A stretch of DNA of 4,017 nt, from the IMG/VR virus record IMGVR_UViG_2778261154_000011. One strand, given 5' to 3'. Source of the DNA: a virus. Its lineage: Duplodnaviria; Heunggongvirae; Uroviricota; Caudoviricetes. Positions 1 to 4,017 of the stretch are shown piece after piece. A model generated the notes under the pieces. The model made no database searches. It worked only from the letters and a program-made list of their open reading frames with translations, and was not told the DNA's origin. The position numbers and the translations under genes were made by a program. Within the stretch, counting starts at the first letter, position 1. Each line of letters opens with the position of its first letter.

Positions 1-1
1 G

Positions 2-196
2 GTGCTCGTCAAAGGAAAATGCCCTGTGCCATCCTCAGCCGAAACCTCCAGCGCCTCCGGCATGGGCAATGATGCCAGCGTCGAACTCTCTCCAGTTGCT
101 GGACGAAACGTTCTCGGTATCAGAGACGGAATCATCAGAGACCAGACAGCACTGAGAACGCTTCAGGAATACATCAGAACGCAGTGTCTGAATTAA
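2..196 (+). CDS. Rz: Rz-like i-spanin (lysis protein), C-terminal portion; 5' end lies upstream of the window
   Basis: Frame is open from the window edge to TAA at 194-196. The C-terminal residues ...KCPVPSSAETSSASGMGNDAS...ALRTLQEYIRTQCLN parallel the C-terminus of phage lambda Rz as I recall it (...CQSVREATTASGVDNAAS...LEGTQKYINEQCR). A proline-rich Rz1-like frame is nested inside it, as in lambda. Confidence 0.75.
   Translation: MLVKGKCPVPSSAETSSASGMGNDASVELSPVAGRNVLGIRDGIIRDQTALRTLQEYIRTQCLN
3..155 (+). CDS. Rz1: Rz1-like o-spanin (outer-membrane lipoprotein) embedded in a different frame of Rz; 5' end (signal peptide) upstream of the window
   Basis: Frame 3 translation is CSSKENALCHPQPKPPAPPAWAMMPASNSLQLLDETFSVSETESSETRQH with stop TGA at 153-155. 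The Cys-x-SK...Cys and proline-rich PPAPPAW core match the mature lambda Rz1 pattern as recalled (C-TSKQSVSQ-C-VKPPPPPAWIMQPP). The first Cys is probably the lipobox cysteine. Confidence 0.6.
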   Translation, partial: CSSKENALCHPQPKPPAPPAWAMMPASNSLQLLDETFSVSETESSETRQH

Positions 197-336
197 CGGA
201 GCTGGAATGAATGCTGTTTACCTGTTGCGGAAATAAAGATTGCATATTGCGACAATTTGTTGCATGTTTAAGGTGCGCTTTTCCAGAGCGTATGCGTACG
301 CACCGCATGAAGTACAACCACAGAGAGGCAACCATA

Positions 337-567
337 ATGGCAACAAGCATCCGTTTAGACGATGATTTCGTCAGTGACGTAAAGGTTCACGCTGATGCCG
401 CAAGTCGCAGCATACCAAAACAAATTGAGCACTGGGCTAAGATTGGTCGTATAGCTGAAGATAATCCAGATCTGCCATTCAGTTTTATTAGCGAAGTTCT
501 GCTGTCACAAAGCGAAATCAGACACAACAAGGTAACGCGTTATGTCAGAAGAACAGACAGGTCGTGA
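337..567 (+). CDS. Putative type II antitoxin, ribbon-helix-helix (CopG/ParD/RelB-like) fold, 76 aa
   Basis: ATG at 337 is preceded by GAGAGG (323-328) at good spacing. The N-terminus MATSIRLDDDFVSDVKVHADAASRSIPKQIEHWAKIGRIAEDN has the beta-strand plus two-helix layout typical of RHH DNA-binding antitoxins, followed by a C-terminal tail (PDLPFSFISEVLLSQSEIR...) of the kind that usually binds the toxin. It overlaps the downstream gene by 26 nt. The ORF-track start at 211 looks like an upstream extension without a ribosome-binding site. Confidence 0.6.
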   Translation: MATSIRLDDDFVSDVKVHADAASRSIPKQIEHWAKIGRIAEDNPDLPFSFISEVLLSQSEIRHNKVTRYVRRTDRS

Positions 568-871
568 AATTGATGTTTATCAGAGTCGGCGTTTCGAAAA
601 GTCTCTGAGTAAACTCCCGGAAGCGCAACTGAAAGTTGTGGAAGATGAGATCGACAGAATAATTGACAATCCTCTGTTGGGAACGCAAAAGAAAGGAGAC
701 CTCAGTTTTCTTCGTGTGCATAAATTTCAGCTGAATAATCAACAGGTGCTTCTGGGTTACAGCTGGCTTGACGATAAACTTGAGCTCTACCTCCTTAGCA
801 TCGGTCCACATGAAAATTTTTATACCGATCAGAAAAAACACCGAAAAGCTGATTTAAAACTCATCGGTTAG
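542..871 (+). CDS. Putative type II toxin of the RelE/ParE superfamily, 109 aa
   Basis: ATG at 542 has AAGG (529-532) upstream. Size, position directly downstream of and overlapping an RHH gene, and a C-terminal segment LELYLLSIGPHENFY resembling the RelE-family C-terminal beta-strand/active-site region (compare E. coli RelE ...VVFVISVGKRERSEVY, recalled) support the call. A terminator follows 21 nt downstream. Confidence 0.6.
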   Translation: MSEEQTGREIDVYQSRRFEKSLSKLPEAQLKVVEDEIDRIIDNPLLGTQKKGDLSFLRVHKFQLNNQQVLLGYSWLDDKLELYLLSIGPHENFYTDQKKHRKADLKLIG

Positions 872-891
872 TCCTGACGTCATGCATACCA

Positions 892-916
892 GCCCACGTA
901 AACGCGTGGGCTTTTT
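892..916 (+). terminator. Rho-independent terminator after the toxin gene
   Basis: GC-rich stem GCCCACG (892-898) pairs with CGTGGGC (905-911) around a 6-nt loop, immediately followed by TTTTT (912-916). Confidence 0.65.
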
Positions 917-1069
917 CATATCTGAATTTCACCGCGCACCGCAGCGCATGATAACCACCGAACCTGCCCCTTTGGAATGAGCCTTTGAGGATACCAGTTA
1001 GTGCTGGCGAGCCTCGGTGGGCTGGTTTCCTGTGCGGCAAAGGTTCATTTCAAAGAACAGGTATACGAC

Positions 1070-1567
1070 ATGAAATCATTAACCCTCTTCAATCAGCCAA
1101 TCCGTATCGGTGAAGATGGCATGATCTGCCTCACTGATATGTGGAAAGCCAGTGGTAAAAGTGAATCTGAATCTCCGTACCACTACCTGCGAAACAAGCA
1201 GACCAAAGAGTTCTTAGCCGAGCTGGAGAAAAACCACGAATCTGTGGTTTTTACTGAGCGCGGTGTACACGGTGGAACATATGGCGGGAAGTTTGTTGCT
1301 TATGATTATGCAGCATGGCTAAACCCCGGATTTAAATATGCAGCCTATAAAGTCCTGGATGACTACTTCACCGGAGAACTTCAGCATCGCAACAGCTTAA
1401 GTGCGCAGCTCAATATGAAGTGTCATGAGTTTGATCAGAAAAAAGATATGGCGAGCTTCTGTGGACAAGGGCTGGCGGCATGGCGCTATACGAAGCCAGT
1501 GTTGGTCGCTGAGATTAACTCCCTGGCTAACCAGCTGCAGATAACGATCCCCGGGCTTCCGGGATGA
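1070..1567 (+). CDS. KilA-N domain protein (phage DNA-binding/antirepressor-like N-terminal domain) with an uncharacterised C-terminal region, 165 aa
   Basis: The N-terminal half MKSLTLFNQPIRIGEDGMICLTDMWKASGKSESESPYHYLRNKQTKEFLAELEK...GGTYGGKFVAYDYAAWLNPGFKYAAYKVL fits the KilA-N (APSES-like) pattern as I recall it (conserved basic/Gly/aromatic positions, then G-T-W/Y...A...WL-P-F). ATG at 1070 places the domain at the N-terminus. The ORF-track GTG at 1001 would add 23 residues with no support. The stop TGA (1565-1567) overlaps the next ATG. Confidence 0.65.
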   Translation: MKSLTLFNQPIRIGEDGMICLTDMWKASGKSESESPYHYLRNKQTKEFLAELEKNHESVVFTERGVHGGTYGGKFVAYDYAAWLNPGFKYAAYKVLDDYFTGELQHRNSLSAQLNMKCHEFDQKKDMASFCGQGLAAWRYTKPVLVAEINSLANQLQITIPGLPG

Positions 1568-1821
1568 GTGATCGTGTCATTGAATGCGCCTCCAGAGCGG
1601 GGCGCGACTTCTCAGAGTTCATGAAAGGCGAGAAGGGCATGATGGAAGCATTGGCCTCGGTGGATGAGTTTGGCGAGCAGCTGCGCCTCAACGGCTGTGT
1701 CAATCATCACTTTGTTAGCTACATGATGCGGAACTCGATCATGCAGGCATTCATGGACATGGCAAAAGCCGAGAGGAAAGAAGAGCGCCGGCGTAAGCGA
1801 GCGGAAGCAAAAGCGAAGTAG
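1564..1821 (+). CDS. Small hypothetical protein (85 aa) with Lys/Arg/Glu-rich C-terminal tail; translationally coupled to the KilA-N gene
   Basis: ATGA overlap at 1564-1567 (start within the upstream stop). The C-terminus KAERKEERRRKRAEAKAK is strongly charged. No recognisable catalytic motif; Cys/His content is too sparse for an HNH fold. An alternative internal start at ATG 1642 is preceded by GAAGGG. Function unknown. Confidence 0.45.
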   Translation: MSDRVIECASRAGRDFSEFMKGEKGMMEALASVDEFGEQLRLNGCVNHHFVSYMMRNSIMQAFMDMAKAERKEERRRKRAEAKAK

Positions 1822-1860
1822 CCATTACAAAGCCCATCTACTGGTGGGCTTGATAATGGC
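1821..1860. repeat. Nested inverted repeat / stem-loop immediately after the small ORF stop
   Basis: Outer arms GCCATTA (1821-1827) and TAATGGC (1854-1860); inner arms AAGCCCA (1830-1836) and TGGGCTT (1845-1851); 8-nt loop. This gives a 14-bp interrupted stem. No strong T-tract follows, so it may be an RNA 3' stabiliser, a weak terminator or a protein-binding site. Confidence 0.4.
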
Positions 1861-1873
1861 TTATACCCTACAC

Positions 1874-1899
1874 GGGATAACTTAACTGATATCCCTTTT
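1874..1899 (+). terminator. Possible second hairpin followed by a T-run
   Basis: GGGATA (1874-1879) pairs with TATCCC (1890-1895) around a 10-nt loop, followed by TTTT (1896-1899). The stem is short and the loop large, so this is weak. Confidence 0.25.
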
Positions 1900-2209
1900 A
1901 ACGGATAAAGGTATTCAAGCCTGACACATCATGCGCTGTATCGTCGCTGTATTCCCGCATTAACCATGACCGTAGCCCGACGGGGAACTCCTTCTGCGCG
2001 AGTGTGCGGGAATAATCAAAAACGATGCACACCGGGTTTTTACCGCGTTTATGGTTCGCGGGTTTGTCCCTCATGCTCGCCAGTCCTGTGCGGGGGTGGA
2101 AGAAACAGGACACTTACACTGATTCTTGTGGGTACGATGCTATTCCTTTCTGGATTATCCCGATGTCATTCATGCAGGGCGCTGTATCAGACGTTCGTCA
2201 TGGCTGTCA

Positions 2210-2290
2210 GGCTGACGGGTCCTCCCGGTGGGGTGGCCTGCCACGGGGCGGGAGCGGCGCAGAATTTCACTATTTATGAAAATTTTTCGG
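2210..2290. other. cos site, cosN-proximal block (phage DNA packaging/cleavage site); predicted cosN about 2246-2257
   Basis: Window sequence GACGGGTCCTCCCGGTG...CCACG GGGCGGGAGCGG CGCAGAATTTCACTATTTATGAAAATTTTTCGG aligns with the lambda genome ends as I recall them (right end ...GACGGGTCCTTTCCGGTGATCCGACAGGTTACG joined to left end GGGCGGCGACCT CGCGGGTTTTCGCTATTTATGAAAATTTTCCGG). The block lies about 200 bp upstream of the Nu1-like start, as in lambda. The 12-mer at the cosN position shares only the first 6 nt with lambda. Confidence 0.6.
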
Positions 2291-2295
2291 AAACC

Positions 2296-2392
2296 ATGTC
2301 CGGTTTCTCTGAAGGTTAACCATTTGAAAAATATAGAAATGTGCTTTCTGCGAACCGGACATGCGCAAAAATTGAACACTCAAACCGGACAT
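2296..2392. repeat. cosB-like array: three copies of the 10-mer AACCGGACAT (one inverted, two direct), candidate small-terminase binding sites
   Basis: ATGTCCGGTT at 2296-2305 is the reverse complement of AACCGGACAT, which occurs exactly at 2353-2362 and 2383-2392. The direct copies are 30 bp apart. Position (between cosN and the Nu1-like gene) and arrangement (one inverted element, spacer with IHF-like site, two further elements) mimic lambda R3-I1-R2-R1. Confidence 0.5.
2317..2329 (-). promoter_or_regulatory. IHF-like binding site between the inverted and direct cosB elements
   Basis: The minus strand reads TTTCAAATGGTTA, matching the IHF consensus WATCAANNNNTTR with one mismatch, next to an A-rich tract (GAAAAATATAGAAAT). 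Confidence 0.3.
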
Positions 2393-2470
2393 ATATGCCG
2401 CGTTTCATAAAGTTGTTCGCAAGATGCATGTTTAAAACGCATGAGGGGAGATTTTTTGGCGAGGTGAACA

Positions 2471-2980
2471 GTGGCTACTCAGACTGAAGTTGCCAGGCAT
2501 TTGAGTCTGACCGATCGCCAGCTTCGCAGATTACAGAAACTGCCGGGTGCCCCGGTTTCGAACAAGCGAGGACAACTGGATCTGGATGCCTGGCGTGATT
2601 TTTACATATCGTATCTGAGAAGAAGTAAAAACGATGTGCCTGATGGTGATCCGGAAGAGGATTATGAAGAGAAACTACTCATTGCGAGATGGGAACTGAC
2701 CGCAGAACAGGCTGTCGCACAGCAGTTAAAAAATCAGGTGTCAAAAGGAAATCTTATTGATAGCGGATTTTGTATTTTTGCCCTTAGTAAGCTGGCGATG
2801 GCTTTATCCAGTACGCTTGACTCCATTCCTTTGTCCATGCAACGACAGTTCCCGGATTTAACGCCGCGTCATATTGATCATCTGAAAATCCTTATTGCTA
2901 AGGGAGCGAATCAGTGCGCGCGTGCGGGGGATAAATTACCGGATTTACTCGATGAATATATCAGAACAACAACTGAGTAA
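2471..2980 (+). CDS. nu1: Terminase small subunit, lambda Nu1-like, 169 aa
   Basis: GTG start at 2471 with GAGGTG (2461-2466) upstream and an in-frame TGA just before it. The C-terminal two-thirds are clearly similar to lambda Nu1 as recalled (window ...SGFCIFALSKLAMALSSTLDSIPLSMQRQFPDLTPRHIDHL...LPDLLDEYI versus lambda ...TAFCTFVLSRIAGEIASILDGLPLSVQRRFPELENRHVDFL...IPGLLSEYI). The N-terminal HTH region is diverged. It overlaps the large-subunit start by 29 nt, as in lambda. Confidence 0.9.
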   Translation: MATQTEVARHLSLTDRQLRRLQKLPGAPVSNKRGQLDLDAWRDFYISYLRRSKNDVPDGDPEEDYEEKLLIARWELTAEQAVAQQLKNQVSKGNLIDSGFCIFALSKLAMALSSTLDSIPLSMQRQFPDLTPRHIDHLKILIAKGANQCARAGDKLPDLLDEYIRTTTE

Positions 2981-3914
2981 TATGATGGTGGCAGTCACTA
3001 TCGCACTGCAGCCACTGGTCAGGGTATTGCCGGTGACGGCTGTAGAATGGGCCGATCAAAATTATTACCTGCCTAAAGAATCGTCATACGGTGAGGGGGA
3101 ATGGAAAACGCTGCCGTTTCAGGTCGCCATCATGAACTGCATGGGCAATGACGAGATTCGTACAGTTAACCTGATTAAATCTGCCCGTGTTGGTTATACA
3201 AAAATGGTGCTTGGTGTGATCGGGTATTTTATTGAGCACAAATCCCGCAACACTCTTCTTTTTCAGCCGACGGACTCAGCTGCTGAAGATTTTATGAAGT
3301 CTCACGTGGAAGCAACAATTCGTGATGTTCCTTGCCTGAAAAAACTTTCTCCCTGGCTGGGCCGGAAACACCGGGATAATACGCTCACACTGAAGCGTTT
3401 TTCCTCTGGTGTGGGGTTCTGGTGTTTGGGTGGTGCTGCTGCCAAAAACTACCGTGAAAAATCTGTCGATGTGGTCTGCTATGACGAACTCTCCTCGTTT
3501 GAACCGGATGTGGAAAAAGAAGGTTCGCCAACACTGCTTGGCGATAAACGTATTGAAGGTTCGGTATGGCCAAAATCCATACGCGGTTCAACGCCAAAAA
3601 TCAAAGGCTCCTGCCAGATTGAAAAAGCCGCGAATGAATCTGCACATTTCATGCGGTTTTATGTTCCTTGCCCTCATTGCGGGGAGGAGCAGTATCTGAA
3701 ATTTGGCGATGATGCGACGCCGTTTGGCCTGAAATGGGAGAAAGGCAAACCGGAAACGGTGTATTACCTGTGTGAACATAATGGTTGCGTGATCCGTCAG
3801 TCTGAACTTGATCAGACCGGGGGGCGCTGGATTTGTGACAATACCGGGATGTGGACGCGTGACGGCCTGACATTTTACAGCGTCGGTGATGAGGAGATAC
3901 CCCATAAGCGCTAA
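2952..3914 (+). pseudogene. A: Terminase large subunit (lambda gpA-like), N-terminal ATPase fragment of 320 aa; nuclease and portal-binding regions absent
   Basis: From ATG 2952 (MNISEQQLSNMM...) the product is near-collinear with lambda gpA as recalled (TAVEWADQNYYLPKES, KSARVGYTKM Walker-A-like, VVCYDEL Walker-B-like, GDKRIEGSVWPKSIRGSTPK, FMRFYVPCPHCGEEQYLKFGD, YYLCEHNGCVIRQSELD). Similarity ends at ...SVGDEEIPHKR followed by TAA at 3912-3914, whereas lambda gpA is about 640 aa. No downstream frame in the remaining 100 nt continues gpA. The ORF-track start at 2895 is an upstream extension. Confidence 0.8.
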
Positions 3915-4017
3915 CTTAAGGGTTGAACCATCTGAAGAATGCGACGCCTCGGTGCCTCGTTAAGACGATGCCTCGCGTTCTTCAATTGCGTTTTGTAGGC
4001 TGTCAGGGATACTGTCC

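What the first reader, a model, noticed from the sequence alone, without database searches (positions are those of the whole stretch)
2952..4017. Large terminase ends after the ATPase region; abrupt loss of homology marks a deletion or rearrangement junction
The gpA-like ORF stops at 3914 after about 320 aa, right after the region collinear with the lambda gpA N-terminal ATPase half. None of the three forward frames in 3915-4017 continues gpA-like sequence. The prophage therefore appears defective (cryptic) for DNA packaging while keeping an apparently intact Nu1 gene, its binding sites and cos. That combination could still allow recognition or mobilisation by a helper phage terminase, as in cos-carrying satellite elements, but this is speculative.
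Basis: partly seen in the sequence, partly recalled or inferred. Interest (0 to 1): 0.5.

Follow-up and report, generated by a model that had tools for sequence, protein, structure and literature searches.

The report
IS186 insertion splitting a prophage terminase
The large-terminase gene of this E. coli lambda-like prophage is cut short because a common jumping gene (IS186) landed in it, and the window stops there only because the draft assembly broke inside that repeat; this is an ordinary, well-understood way for a prophage to be disabled.

Summary
The gpA-like ORF (2952-3914, 320 aa) holds only the ATPase domain, and homology to intact gpA genes ends at 3902/3903. The cause is not a deletion or rearrangement. 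Bases 3903-4017 are the terminal 115 bp of IS186 (annotated IS421; IS4 family), starting with its 23-bp inverted repeat CATAAGCGCTAACTTAAGGGTTG. The stop codon (3912-3914) lies inside that repeat. The window is a complete 4,017-bp draft contig (NJNE01000153.1) that ends in the multicopy IS. A second E. coli genome (UGFN01000003.1) is identical over all 4,017 bases and shows the whole structure: a 1,339-bp IS186 (99.93% identical to K-12 IS186A), a 10-bp target duplication GGAGATACCC, then the rest of gpA, W, portal, protease and head and tail genes. Removing the IS and one duplicate in silico restores a 642-aa gpA, 1 nt different from intact relatives. The target GAGG(AGATAC)CCCC is one base from the published IS186 consensus GGGG(N6/N7)CCCC. 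The insertion falls after codon 317, in the linker between the ATPase (48-293) and nuclease (322-601) domains. The prophage is therefore very probably packaging-defective but not a satellite. A second gpA allele carries IS186 at the same base in the opposite orientation, so the site is a recurrent target. Ordinary; low interest.

The parts
2471..2980 (+). Small terminase subunit (Nu1-like, 169 aa), intact; overlaps the gpA start by 29 nt as in lambda
   Evidence: Pfam Phage_Nu1 4.8e-18. DNA is 100% identical to the gene for WP_000235445.1 in an uninterrupted prophage. The C-terminal two-thirds aligns with lambda Nu1.
2952..3902 (+). 5' part of the large terminase gene gpA: codons 1-317 (Nu1-binding N-terminus by analogy, and packaging ATPase domain with Walker A KSARVGY at residue 76)
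   Evidence: Pfam GpA_ATPase 48-293, 5e-56. 100% identical to the first 951 nt of the 642-aa gene in L001. Codon 317 aligns with lambda gpA residue 317.
3891..3902 (.). Left part of the IS186 target: GAGG (3891-3894), core AGATAC (3895-3900), CC (3901-3902). In the uninterrupted gene the site reads GAGG(AGATAC)CCCC
   Evidence: Sequence of the intact gene in L001. The published consensus is GGGG(N6/N7)CCCC (PMC5009759). Copies in menC, traI and K-12 have the same geometry.
3893..3902 (.). Left copy of the 10-bp target-site duplication GGAGATACCC (the right copy lies beyond the window, at L004 12291-12300)
   Evidence: the 10 nt before the IS equal the 10 nt after it in L004, which is identical to the window over all 4,017 nt.
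3903..3925 (.). 23-bp terminal inverted repeat of IS186, CATAAGCGCTAACTTAAGGGTTG
   Evidence: An exact reverse-complement copy sits at the other end of the element in L004 (10952-10974 and 12268-12290). The same ends are present in K-12 IS186A.
3912..3914 (+). TAA stop codon that closes the truncated gpA frame; it and the three preceding codons (H-K-R, 3903-3911) come from the IS inverted repeat
   Evidence: Read directly from the sequence.
3903..4017 (-). Terminal 115 bp of IS186 (the end distal to the transposase gene insL, which reads on the minus strand relative to gpA); the contig ends here
   Evidence: Identical to L004 10952-11066. The whole 1,339-bp element is 99.93% identical to K-12 IS186A on the minus strand. 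The DDE transposase is at L004 11123-12307, minus strand. The window equals the full contig NJNE01000153.1.

Best explanation
An IS186 element (IS4 family; named IS421 in RefSeq annotation) transposed into the gpA gene of an otherwise complete lambda-like prophage of E. coli. Its transposase recognised a near-consensus target, GAGG(AGATAC)CCCC. The element inserted after codon 317 and duplicated 10 bp (GGAGATACCC). The reading frame runs three codons into the inverted repeat and meets a TAA. This leaves a 320-aa product with the Nu1-binding/ATPase half, without the endonuclease (cos-cutting) domain and without the C-terminal end. The window ends 115 bp into the IS because it is a whole draft contig, and short-read assemblies break in multicopy IS elements. 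Shown: the identity and boundaries of the IS, the duplication, the restorable ORF, and the collinear downstream prophage in an identical sister genome. Inferred: the same right-hand structure exists in the window's own genome. Also inferred: the prophage cannot cut cos or package DNA unless a compatible terminase is supplied in trans or the IS is lost precisely.
For:: 100% identity to intact prophages over 1-3903 and none beyond; the tail is a multicopy element annotated as IS421-family transposase, also found interrupting menC and traI; the junction is mapped to the base, and the inverted repeat starts at 3903; the window is the entire contig NJNE01000153.1. The same 320-aa protein lies in a 4.62-Mb contig, followed by a DDE transposase, a GpA_nuclease ORF, gpW, portal, S49 protease, D, E, FI, FII, Z, U and V; the window matches L004 with 0 mismatches in 4,017 nt, and both inverted repeats are found; the IS is 1,339 bp with a 10-bp duplication, and excision restores a 642-aa ORF with 1 nt difference from L001; after excision L004 is collinear with L001 over 11.9 kb at 99.9%; the intact protein has ATPase 48-293 and nuclease 322-601, and the IS ORF is DDE_Tnp_1; 99.93% identity to K-12 IS186A, which has a duplication of the same geometry in GGGG(ATCACT)CCCC. 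(PMC5009759): the IS186 target is GGGG(N6/N7)CCCC, insertions occur in either orientation, and hotspots recur, including menC. (PMC7229814): in lambda TerL the endonuclease that nicks cosN is in the C-terminal domain and the packaging ATPase is in the N-terminal domain.
Against: The window itself shows only one IS end. The target differs by one base from the canonical motif. Loss of packaging function is inferred, not tested. In the sister genome the portal gene is also split by two single-base insertions, which may be assembly errors or further decay.
Confidence: 0.93

Rival explanations
1. Deletion or rearrangement junction: the 3' half of gpA and possibly the downstream morphogenesis genes were lost, leaving a cryptic remnant with Nu1 and cos.
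For: Within the window nothing gpA-like follows 3903. IS elements can mediate adjacent deletions (PMC5009759). The right junction of the window's own genome was not seen.
Against: A genome identical over all 4,017 nt has the rest of gpA directly after the IS, with a perfect 10-bp duplication and a restorable ORF. A duplication flanking the IS is the signature of simple insertion, and an IS-mediated deletion would have removed one copy. The window ends because the contig ends.
Confidence: 0.05
2. Sequencing or assembly artefact: a frameshift, or a chimeric contig that falsely joins gpA to an IS.
For: The window is a short draft contig that ends in a repeat.
Against: The same junction is present, base for base, inside a 4.62-Mb contig of an independent assembly, with both IS ends and the duplication. 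The insertion site matches the known IS186 target motif, which a random chimera would not do.
Confidence: 0.01
3. A naturally short, functional large-terminase variant, or a selected decoy or cos-satellite-like arrangement in which the retained Nu1, cos and ATPase half serve a function such as hijacking or blocking a helper phage's packaging.
For: Nu1, three cosB-like repeats and a cosN-like sequence are intact. The same gpA position was hit by IS186 independently in a second allele, which could hint at selection.
Against: The stop codon is supplied by the IS repeat, so this is not an evolved short gene. The flanking DNA is 100% identical to uninterrupted prophages, so the event is very recent and shows no sign of adaptation. 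All head and tail genes are retained, unlike satellites. None of 5,426 complete genomes carries the junction in either orientation. Recurrence is already explained by the strict target specificity of IS186.
Confidence: 0.03

Closest known systems
IS186 (IS186A/B/C of E. coli K-12; 'IS4-like element IS421 family' in RefSeq), as in the classic IS186 insertions in the lon promoter of E. coli B and in menC and fimA
   Same: 99.93% nucleotide identity over 1,339 bp to K-12 IS186A. Identical 23-bp inverted repeats, a DDE transposase, a 10-bp duplication made of GG + 6-bp core + CC, and a G-rich/C-rich flanked target.
   Different: Only the location differs: it sits inside a lambdoid terminase gene, at a target with one mismatch (GAGG instead of GGGG). 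None of 5,426 complete E. coli genomes has an IS186 at this site.
Lambda terminase large subunit gpA (TerL) and lambda A-defective mutants
   Same: The restored protein is 642 aa against 641 aa, 65% identical to lambda gpA. It has the same Walker A position and the same Nu1-A-W-B gene order with overlapping Nu1/A reading frames. Loss of the C-terminal endonuclease domain is expected to give the A-minus phenotype: no cos cutting and no packaging (domain roles from PMC7229814).
   Different: The defect here is an IS insertion in the interdomain linker rather than a point or amber mutation. The Nu1 N-terminal DNA-binding part and the cosB repeats (AACCGGACAT) differ from those of lambda, so packaging specificity is probably different.
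IS-inactivated or decaying lambdoid prophages of E. coli and Shigella (a general phenomenon)
   Same: A single mobile-element hit in an essential late gene of an otherwise complete prophage. Other relatives in the searches carry IS66/ISEc22 or IS600 in the same region (hits H7 and H8).
   Different: Nothing of substance. This is one more instance.
cos-type phage satellites
   Same: Presence of cos and a small-terminase gene without a working large terminase.
   Different: Satellites lack their own capsid and tail genes, whereas this element has the full set. The missing function results from a recent IS hit, not from an evolved architecture.

Membership tests
IS186 / IS421 (IS4 family insertion sequence) | 23-bp terminal inverted repeats CATAAGCGCTAACTTAAGGGTTG at both ends | tested here: met
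   The window has one end at 3903-3925. Both ends are present in the identical sister locus, at L004 10952-10974 and 12268-12290.
IS186 / IS421 (IS4 family insertion sequence) | Single DDE transposase gene (insL) in an element of about 1.34 kb | tested here: met
   1,339 bp. The 394-aa ORF matches PF01609 DDE_Tnp_1 at 2e-26. It lies outside the window, in L004.
IS186 / IS421 (IS4 family insertion sequence) | Near-identity to the reference element | tested here: met
   1 mismatch in 1,339 nt against K-12 IS186A. The window's 115 nt are identical to L004.
IS186 / IS421 (IS4 family insertion sequence) | Direct target-site duplication flanking the element | tested here: met
   10-bp GGAGATACCC on both sides in L004. 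The same length and geometry occur in the menC, traI and K-12 copies. Only the left copy lies in the window.
IS186 / IS421 (IS4 family insertion sequence) | Target motif 5'-GGGG(N6/N7)CCCC-3' (PMC5009759) | tested here: met
   The intact gene reads GAGG(AGATAC)CCCC, an N6 core with one mismatch in the left tetramer. [quoted passage not shown]
Lambda-type large terminase gpA (TerL) | N-terminal packaging ATPase domain (PF05876) with Walker A | tested here: met
   Residues 48-293, E = 5e-56. KSARVGY is at residue 76, as in lambda.
Lambda-type large terminase gpA (TerL) | C-terminal endonuclease (maturation) domain (PF20454) in the same polypeptide | tested here: not met
   Absent from the window ORF. 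It is present in intact relatives at 322-601, and in L004 as a separated fragment downstream of the IS. The window ORF is therefore a disrupted gpA gene, not a functional member.
Lambda-type large terminase gpA (TerL) | Gene order cos - Nu1 - A - W - portal | tested here: met
   L001 and L004 annotation and Pfam calls.
cos-type phage satellite | No capsid or tail morphogenesis genes of its own; relies on a helper for all of them | tested here: not met
   In L004, W, portal, S49 protease, HDPD (D), major capsid E, FI, FII, Z, U, V and a tail assembly chaperone follow the interrupted gene.
cos-type phage satellite | Demonstrated helper-dependent packaging or transfer | not testable with these tools
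   This needs an induction or transduction experiment.

The most novel reading that the evidence does not exclude
The linker-coding site of this gpA lineage, GAGG(AGATAC)CCCC, is a recurrent IS186 hotspot. It was hit at least twice independently, in opposite orientations, in two alleles. IS186 may thus act as a frequent, host-beneficial way of disarming this family of prophages. The retained Nu1 plus ATPase-only gpA fragment might then interfere with the packaging of related superinfecting phages.
Probability: 0.07. Interest if true: 0.4.

Novelty: already known. Interest (0 to 1): 0.1.

Why it matters
It matters mainly for annotation. The short terminase ORF should be labelled as gpA interrupted by IS186 (a pseudogene), and the prophage as probably packaging-defective but otherwise complete. 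It should not be labelled a deletion remnant or a satellite. The case also shows that an abrupt loss of homology at the end of a draft contig is most simply a repeat-induced assembly break. The one mildly new point is that this position in gpA matches the very specific IS186 target and has been hit more than once. That is a small addition to the list of IS186 hotspots.

Tried and rejected
1. An exact scan of genome contigs for the junction sequence found nothing. That collection holds one genome per species, so this says little.
The right junction in that genome therefore remains inferred.
3. SaiSree et al. 2001 (PMC95536), the original IS186 consensus-target paper, is not held. I used Lee et al. 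2016 (PMC5009759) instead.
4. Junction-centred searches of 5,426 complete E. coli genomes, in both IS orientations, found no genome with the insertion. The allele is therefore rare.
5. Exact look-ups of 'allele + HKR' products for four further gpA alleles were negative.
6. Contigs of other alleles that stop 4-5 nt before the site (L013-L016) show no IS sequence, so they are not evidence for further insertions. The four contigs ending exactly at ...ACCCC (L008-L011) suggest an assembly fork, but I could not establish its cause.
7. Rfam and tRNA scans of the window were empty.
8. A PDB sequence search with the intact gpA found no relative, so domain limits rest on Pfam and on the lambda literature.
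9. I considered and rejected a frameshift or sequencing error, a naturally short terminase, and a satellite architecture (see the rival explanations).

Full report
**What the window is.** The 4,017 bases are the late-region boundary of a lambda-like prophage of E. coli. The features, in order, are:
- the end of an Rz-like lysis gene (to 196);
- a ParD-like/ParE-like toxin-antitoxin pair (337-567 and 542-871);
- a KilA-N/ORF11CD3 protein (to 1567) and a small ORF (1564-1821);
- a 650-bp non-coding stretch with cos-like features;
- a Nu1-like small terminase (2471-2980);
- a gpA-like ORF (2952-3914).

The window is 100% identical over bases 1-3903 to four complete E. coli chromosomes. In those genomes the corresponding gene encodes a 642-aa large terminase, followed by the head-tail joining protein, portal and S49 protease.

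**Checking the observation.**
- The ORF from ATG 2952 stops at TAA 3912-3914 after 320 codons.
- Pfam finds only the gpA ATPase domain in it (residues 48-293, E = 5e-56).
- The intact relative has GpA_ATPase at 48-293 and GpA_nuclease at 322-601.
- No genome match to the terminase region extends past 3903.

**What the junction is.** A search with bases 3890-4017 alone hits 2,262 of 5,426 E. coli genomes, at up to 24 places each, on chromosomes and plasmids. Annotated copies interrupt menC and traI and are labelled 'IS4-like element IS421 family transposase'. Lining up the window, the intact gene and those two copies shows host sequence ...GAGGAGATACCC followed at 3903 by CATAAGCGCTAACTTAAGGGTTG, which is the end of the element. 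The last three codons (His-Lys-Arg) and the stop codon of the 'short terminase' therefore belong to the insertion sequence, and only codons 1-317 are terminase.

**Why the window ends there.** An exact-protein look-up shows that the window is the complete contig NJNE01000153.1 of draft assembly GCA_002467185.1. It stops 115 bp into a multicopy repeat, the usual place for a short-read assembly to break. 'Nothing gpA-like in 3915-4017' is thus a property of the assembly as much as of the genome.

**The full structure in a sister genome.** The same 320-aa protein is encoded on a 4.62-Mb contig of a second E. coli assembly (UGFN01000003.1, locus L004; protein STM81577.1). The window matches L004 7050-11066 with no mismatch.
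- In L004 the element is 1,339 bp (10952-12290) with perfect 23-bp inverted repeats.
- It carries a 394-aa DDE transposase on the strand opposite to gpA.
- It is flanked by a 10-bp direct duplication, GGAGATACCC.
- It differs from IS186A of E. coli K-12 at 1 of 1,339 positions, so it is IS186.
- Deleting the element and one copy of the duplication restores a 642-aa ORF. That ORF differs from the intact gene of strain RMDEC364 by one nucleotide (Leu416 instead of Pro).
- After this in-silico excision, L004 and the intact prophage are collinear over 11.9 kb at 99.9% identity.
- Downstream, L004 carries gpW, portal, S49 protease, the decoration protein, major capsid protein, FI, FII, Z, U, V and a tail assembly chaperone.

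This is a simple insertion, not a deletion or rearrangement.

**Why it landed there.** Lee et al. 2016 (PMC5009759) found that IS186 inserts almost only at 5'-GGGG(N6/N7)CCCC-3'. Insertions occur in either orientation, with repeated hits at some sites, menC among them. The uninterrupted gpA reads GAGG(AGATAC)CCCC, a 6-bp core with one mismatch in the left tetramer. The duplication consists of GG + core + CC. This is the same geometry as in the menC copy (GGGG(AGATCT)CCCC), the traI copy (GGGG(GGATAT)CCCG) and K-12 IS186A (GGGG(ATCACT)CCCC). The shared target motif also explains why BLAST alignments of the IS end ran a few bases into unrelated flanks.

**Consequence for the phage.** The insertion falls after codon 317, which aligns with lambda gpA residue 317/318. 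The restored protein is 65% identical to lambda gpA, and Walker A KSARVGY is at residue 76 in both. The site lies in the 28-residue gap between the two Pfam domains.
- In lambda, the N-terminal domain of TerL is the packaging ATPase. The endonuclease that nicks cosN lies in the C-terminal domain, and the complex must then dock on the portal (PMC7229814).
- From my own knowledge of lambda genetics, not tested here, the extreme C-terminus of gpA carries the prohead-binding determinant.
- The only called ORF for the 3' part starts at a GTG equivalent to residue 369, so it lacks the first ~50 positions of the nuclease profile.

I therefore infer an A-minus phenotype: no cos cleavage and no packaging. 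This would hold unless a compatible terminase is supplied by another prophage or the IS is lost precisely. That step is inference.

Nu1 and the cos region are as intact as in uninterrupted prophages, being 100% identical.
- Between the cosN-like sequence and Nu1 there are three exact copies of AACCGGACAT, at 2296-2305 (inverted), 2353-2362 and 2383-2392. None of 200 shuffles reaches three copies. The layout resembles the R sites of cosB.
- The block CTATTTATGAAAATTTT is identical to lambda 25-41. In that register GGGCGGGAGCGG (2246-2257) stands where lambda has GGGCGGCGACCT (read by eye).
- The satellite analogy fails on content, because the element has its own complete morphogenesis module.

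**How common it is.**
- The exact 320-aa product is on record from only two contigs.
- None of 5,426 complete E. coli genomes carries the junction in either IS orientation.
- The flanks are identical to intact prophages, so the insertion is recent.
- A second gpA allele (P0009) differs from the window only by a mosaic patch of 56 substitutions between 3203 and 3785. Its predicted 'allele + HKR' product exists in the protein collection (P0016).
- The contig carrying it (L012) reads ...GATACCC-CATAAGCGCTAACTTAAGGGTTG-TGG. This is the transposase-proximal end of IS186, whereas the window shows the distal end (...GGGTTG-AACC). The orientation call rests on only the three bases that follow the repeat at the end of L012.
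- The same nucleotide position has therefore been hit at least twice independently, in opposite orientations, as expected for a transposase with a palindromic and highly specific target.
- Four further contigs of that allele stop exactly at ...GATACCCC, the last base common to the interrupted and uninterrupted versions. This suggests an assembly fork, but I could not resolve its cause.

**Verdict.** The gene is truncated after the ATPase half and the prophage is probably packaging-defective. The cause is a textbook IS186 insertion seen through the end of a draft contig, not a deletion, and the element is not satellite-like. This is an already known kind of event, and interest is low. The only slightly new point is that this gpA site is a recurrent IS186 target.

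Noticed in passing
L012 1380-1419 (Logan SRR19690830_790); equivalent to window 3903: A second gpA allele carries IS186 at exactly the same nucleotide but in the opposite orientation. After the 23-bp repeat it reads TGG, where the window reads AACC. This is an independent insertion at the same target. The orientation call rests on only the 3 bases after the repeat.
   Followed up: yes
L008-L011 (contig ends), equivalent to window 3903: Four contigs of that second allele, from four different assemblies or read sets, all stop at ...GAGGAGATACCCC. This is the last base shared by the intact and the IS-interrupted versions. It suggests an assembly-graph fork (two gene copies or a mixed population), but the cause was not established.
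   Followed up: partly
L013-L016 (contig ends), equivalent to window 3898-3899: Contigs of two other gpA alleles, some 73-389 kb long, also end 4-5 nt before this site with no IS sequence visible. One possibility is a mosaic or repeat boundary at the interdomain linker shared between co-resident prophages. Unexplained.
   Followed up: partly
window 2296-2305 (-), 2353-2362 (+), 2383-2392 (+): Three exact copies of AACCGGACAT, one of them inverted, lie between the cosN-like sequence and the Nu1 start. None of 200 shuffles gives three copies. They are candidate Nu1-binding (cosB R-like) sites, with a sequence different from lambda's.
   Followed up: partly
window 2246-2286: A cosN-like region. 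CTATTTATGAAAATTTT (2270-2286) is identical to lambda 25-41. In that register GGGCGGGAGCGG (2246-2257) stands where lambda has its 12-nt cohesive end GGGCGGCGACCT (7 of 12 identical). The actual cut sites are not known.
   Followed up: no
window 337-871: A ParD-like antitoxin (337-567) and ParE-like toxin (542-871) pair sits as a cargo ('moron'-like) module between the lysis genes and the terminase region. A hairpin plus T-run follows at about 886-912.
   Followed up: no
window 1001-1821: A KilA-N + ORF11CD3 domain protein (RefSeq start equivalent to window 1070; ends 1567) and an overlapping 85-aa ORF with no Pfam match (1564-1821) lie upstream of cos. A 58-aa ORF on the minus strand (1898-2074) is annotated 'hypothetical' in RefSeq.
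   Followed up: no
window 2471-2680 (Nu1 residues 1-70): Pfam Phage_Nu1 matches only residues 71-150, and the N-terminal DNA-binding part aligns poorly with lambda Nu1. Together with the different cosB repeats, this suggests a packaging specificity distinct from lambda's.
   Followed up: no
L004 14690 and 14752 (portal gene): Relative to the intact prophage L001, the sister genome has two single-base insertions in short homopolymers of the portal gene. They split it into 429-aa and 69-aa ORFs. They could be long-read assembly errors or a second inactivating lesion.
   Followed up: partly
L004 11505-11524 (+), inside IS186: A terminator-like hairpin with a T-run lies on the gpA-sense strand inside the IS. 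It could make the insertion polar on the downstream head genes unless late transcription is Q-antiterminated.
   Followed up: no
one search hits H7 (NZ_CP050998.1) and H8 (NZ_CP065615.1): Related prophages in other E. coli strains carry other insertion sequences (IS66-like ISEc22, IS600) in or next to the same Nu1-gpA region. IS hits in this module are therefore not unusual.
   Followed up: no
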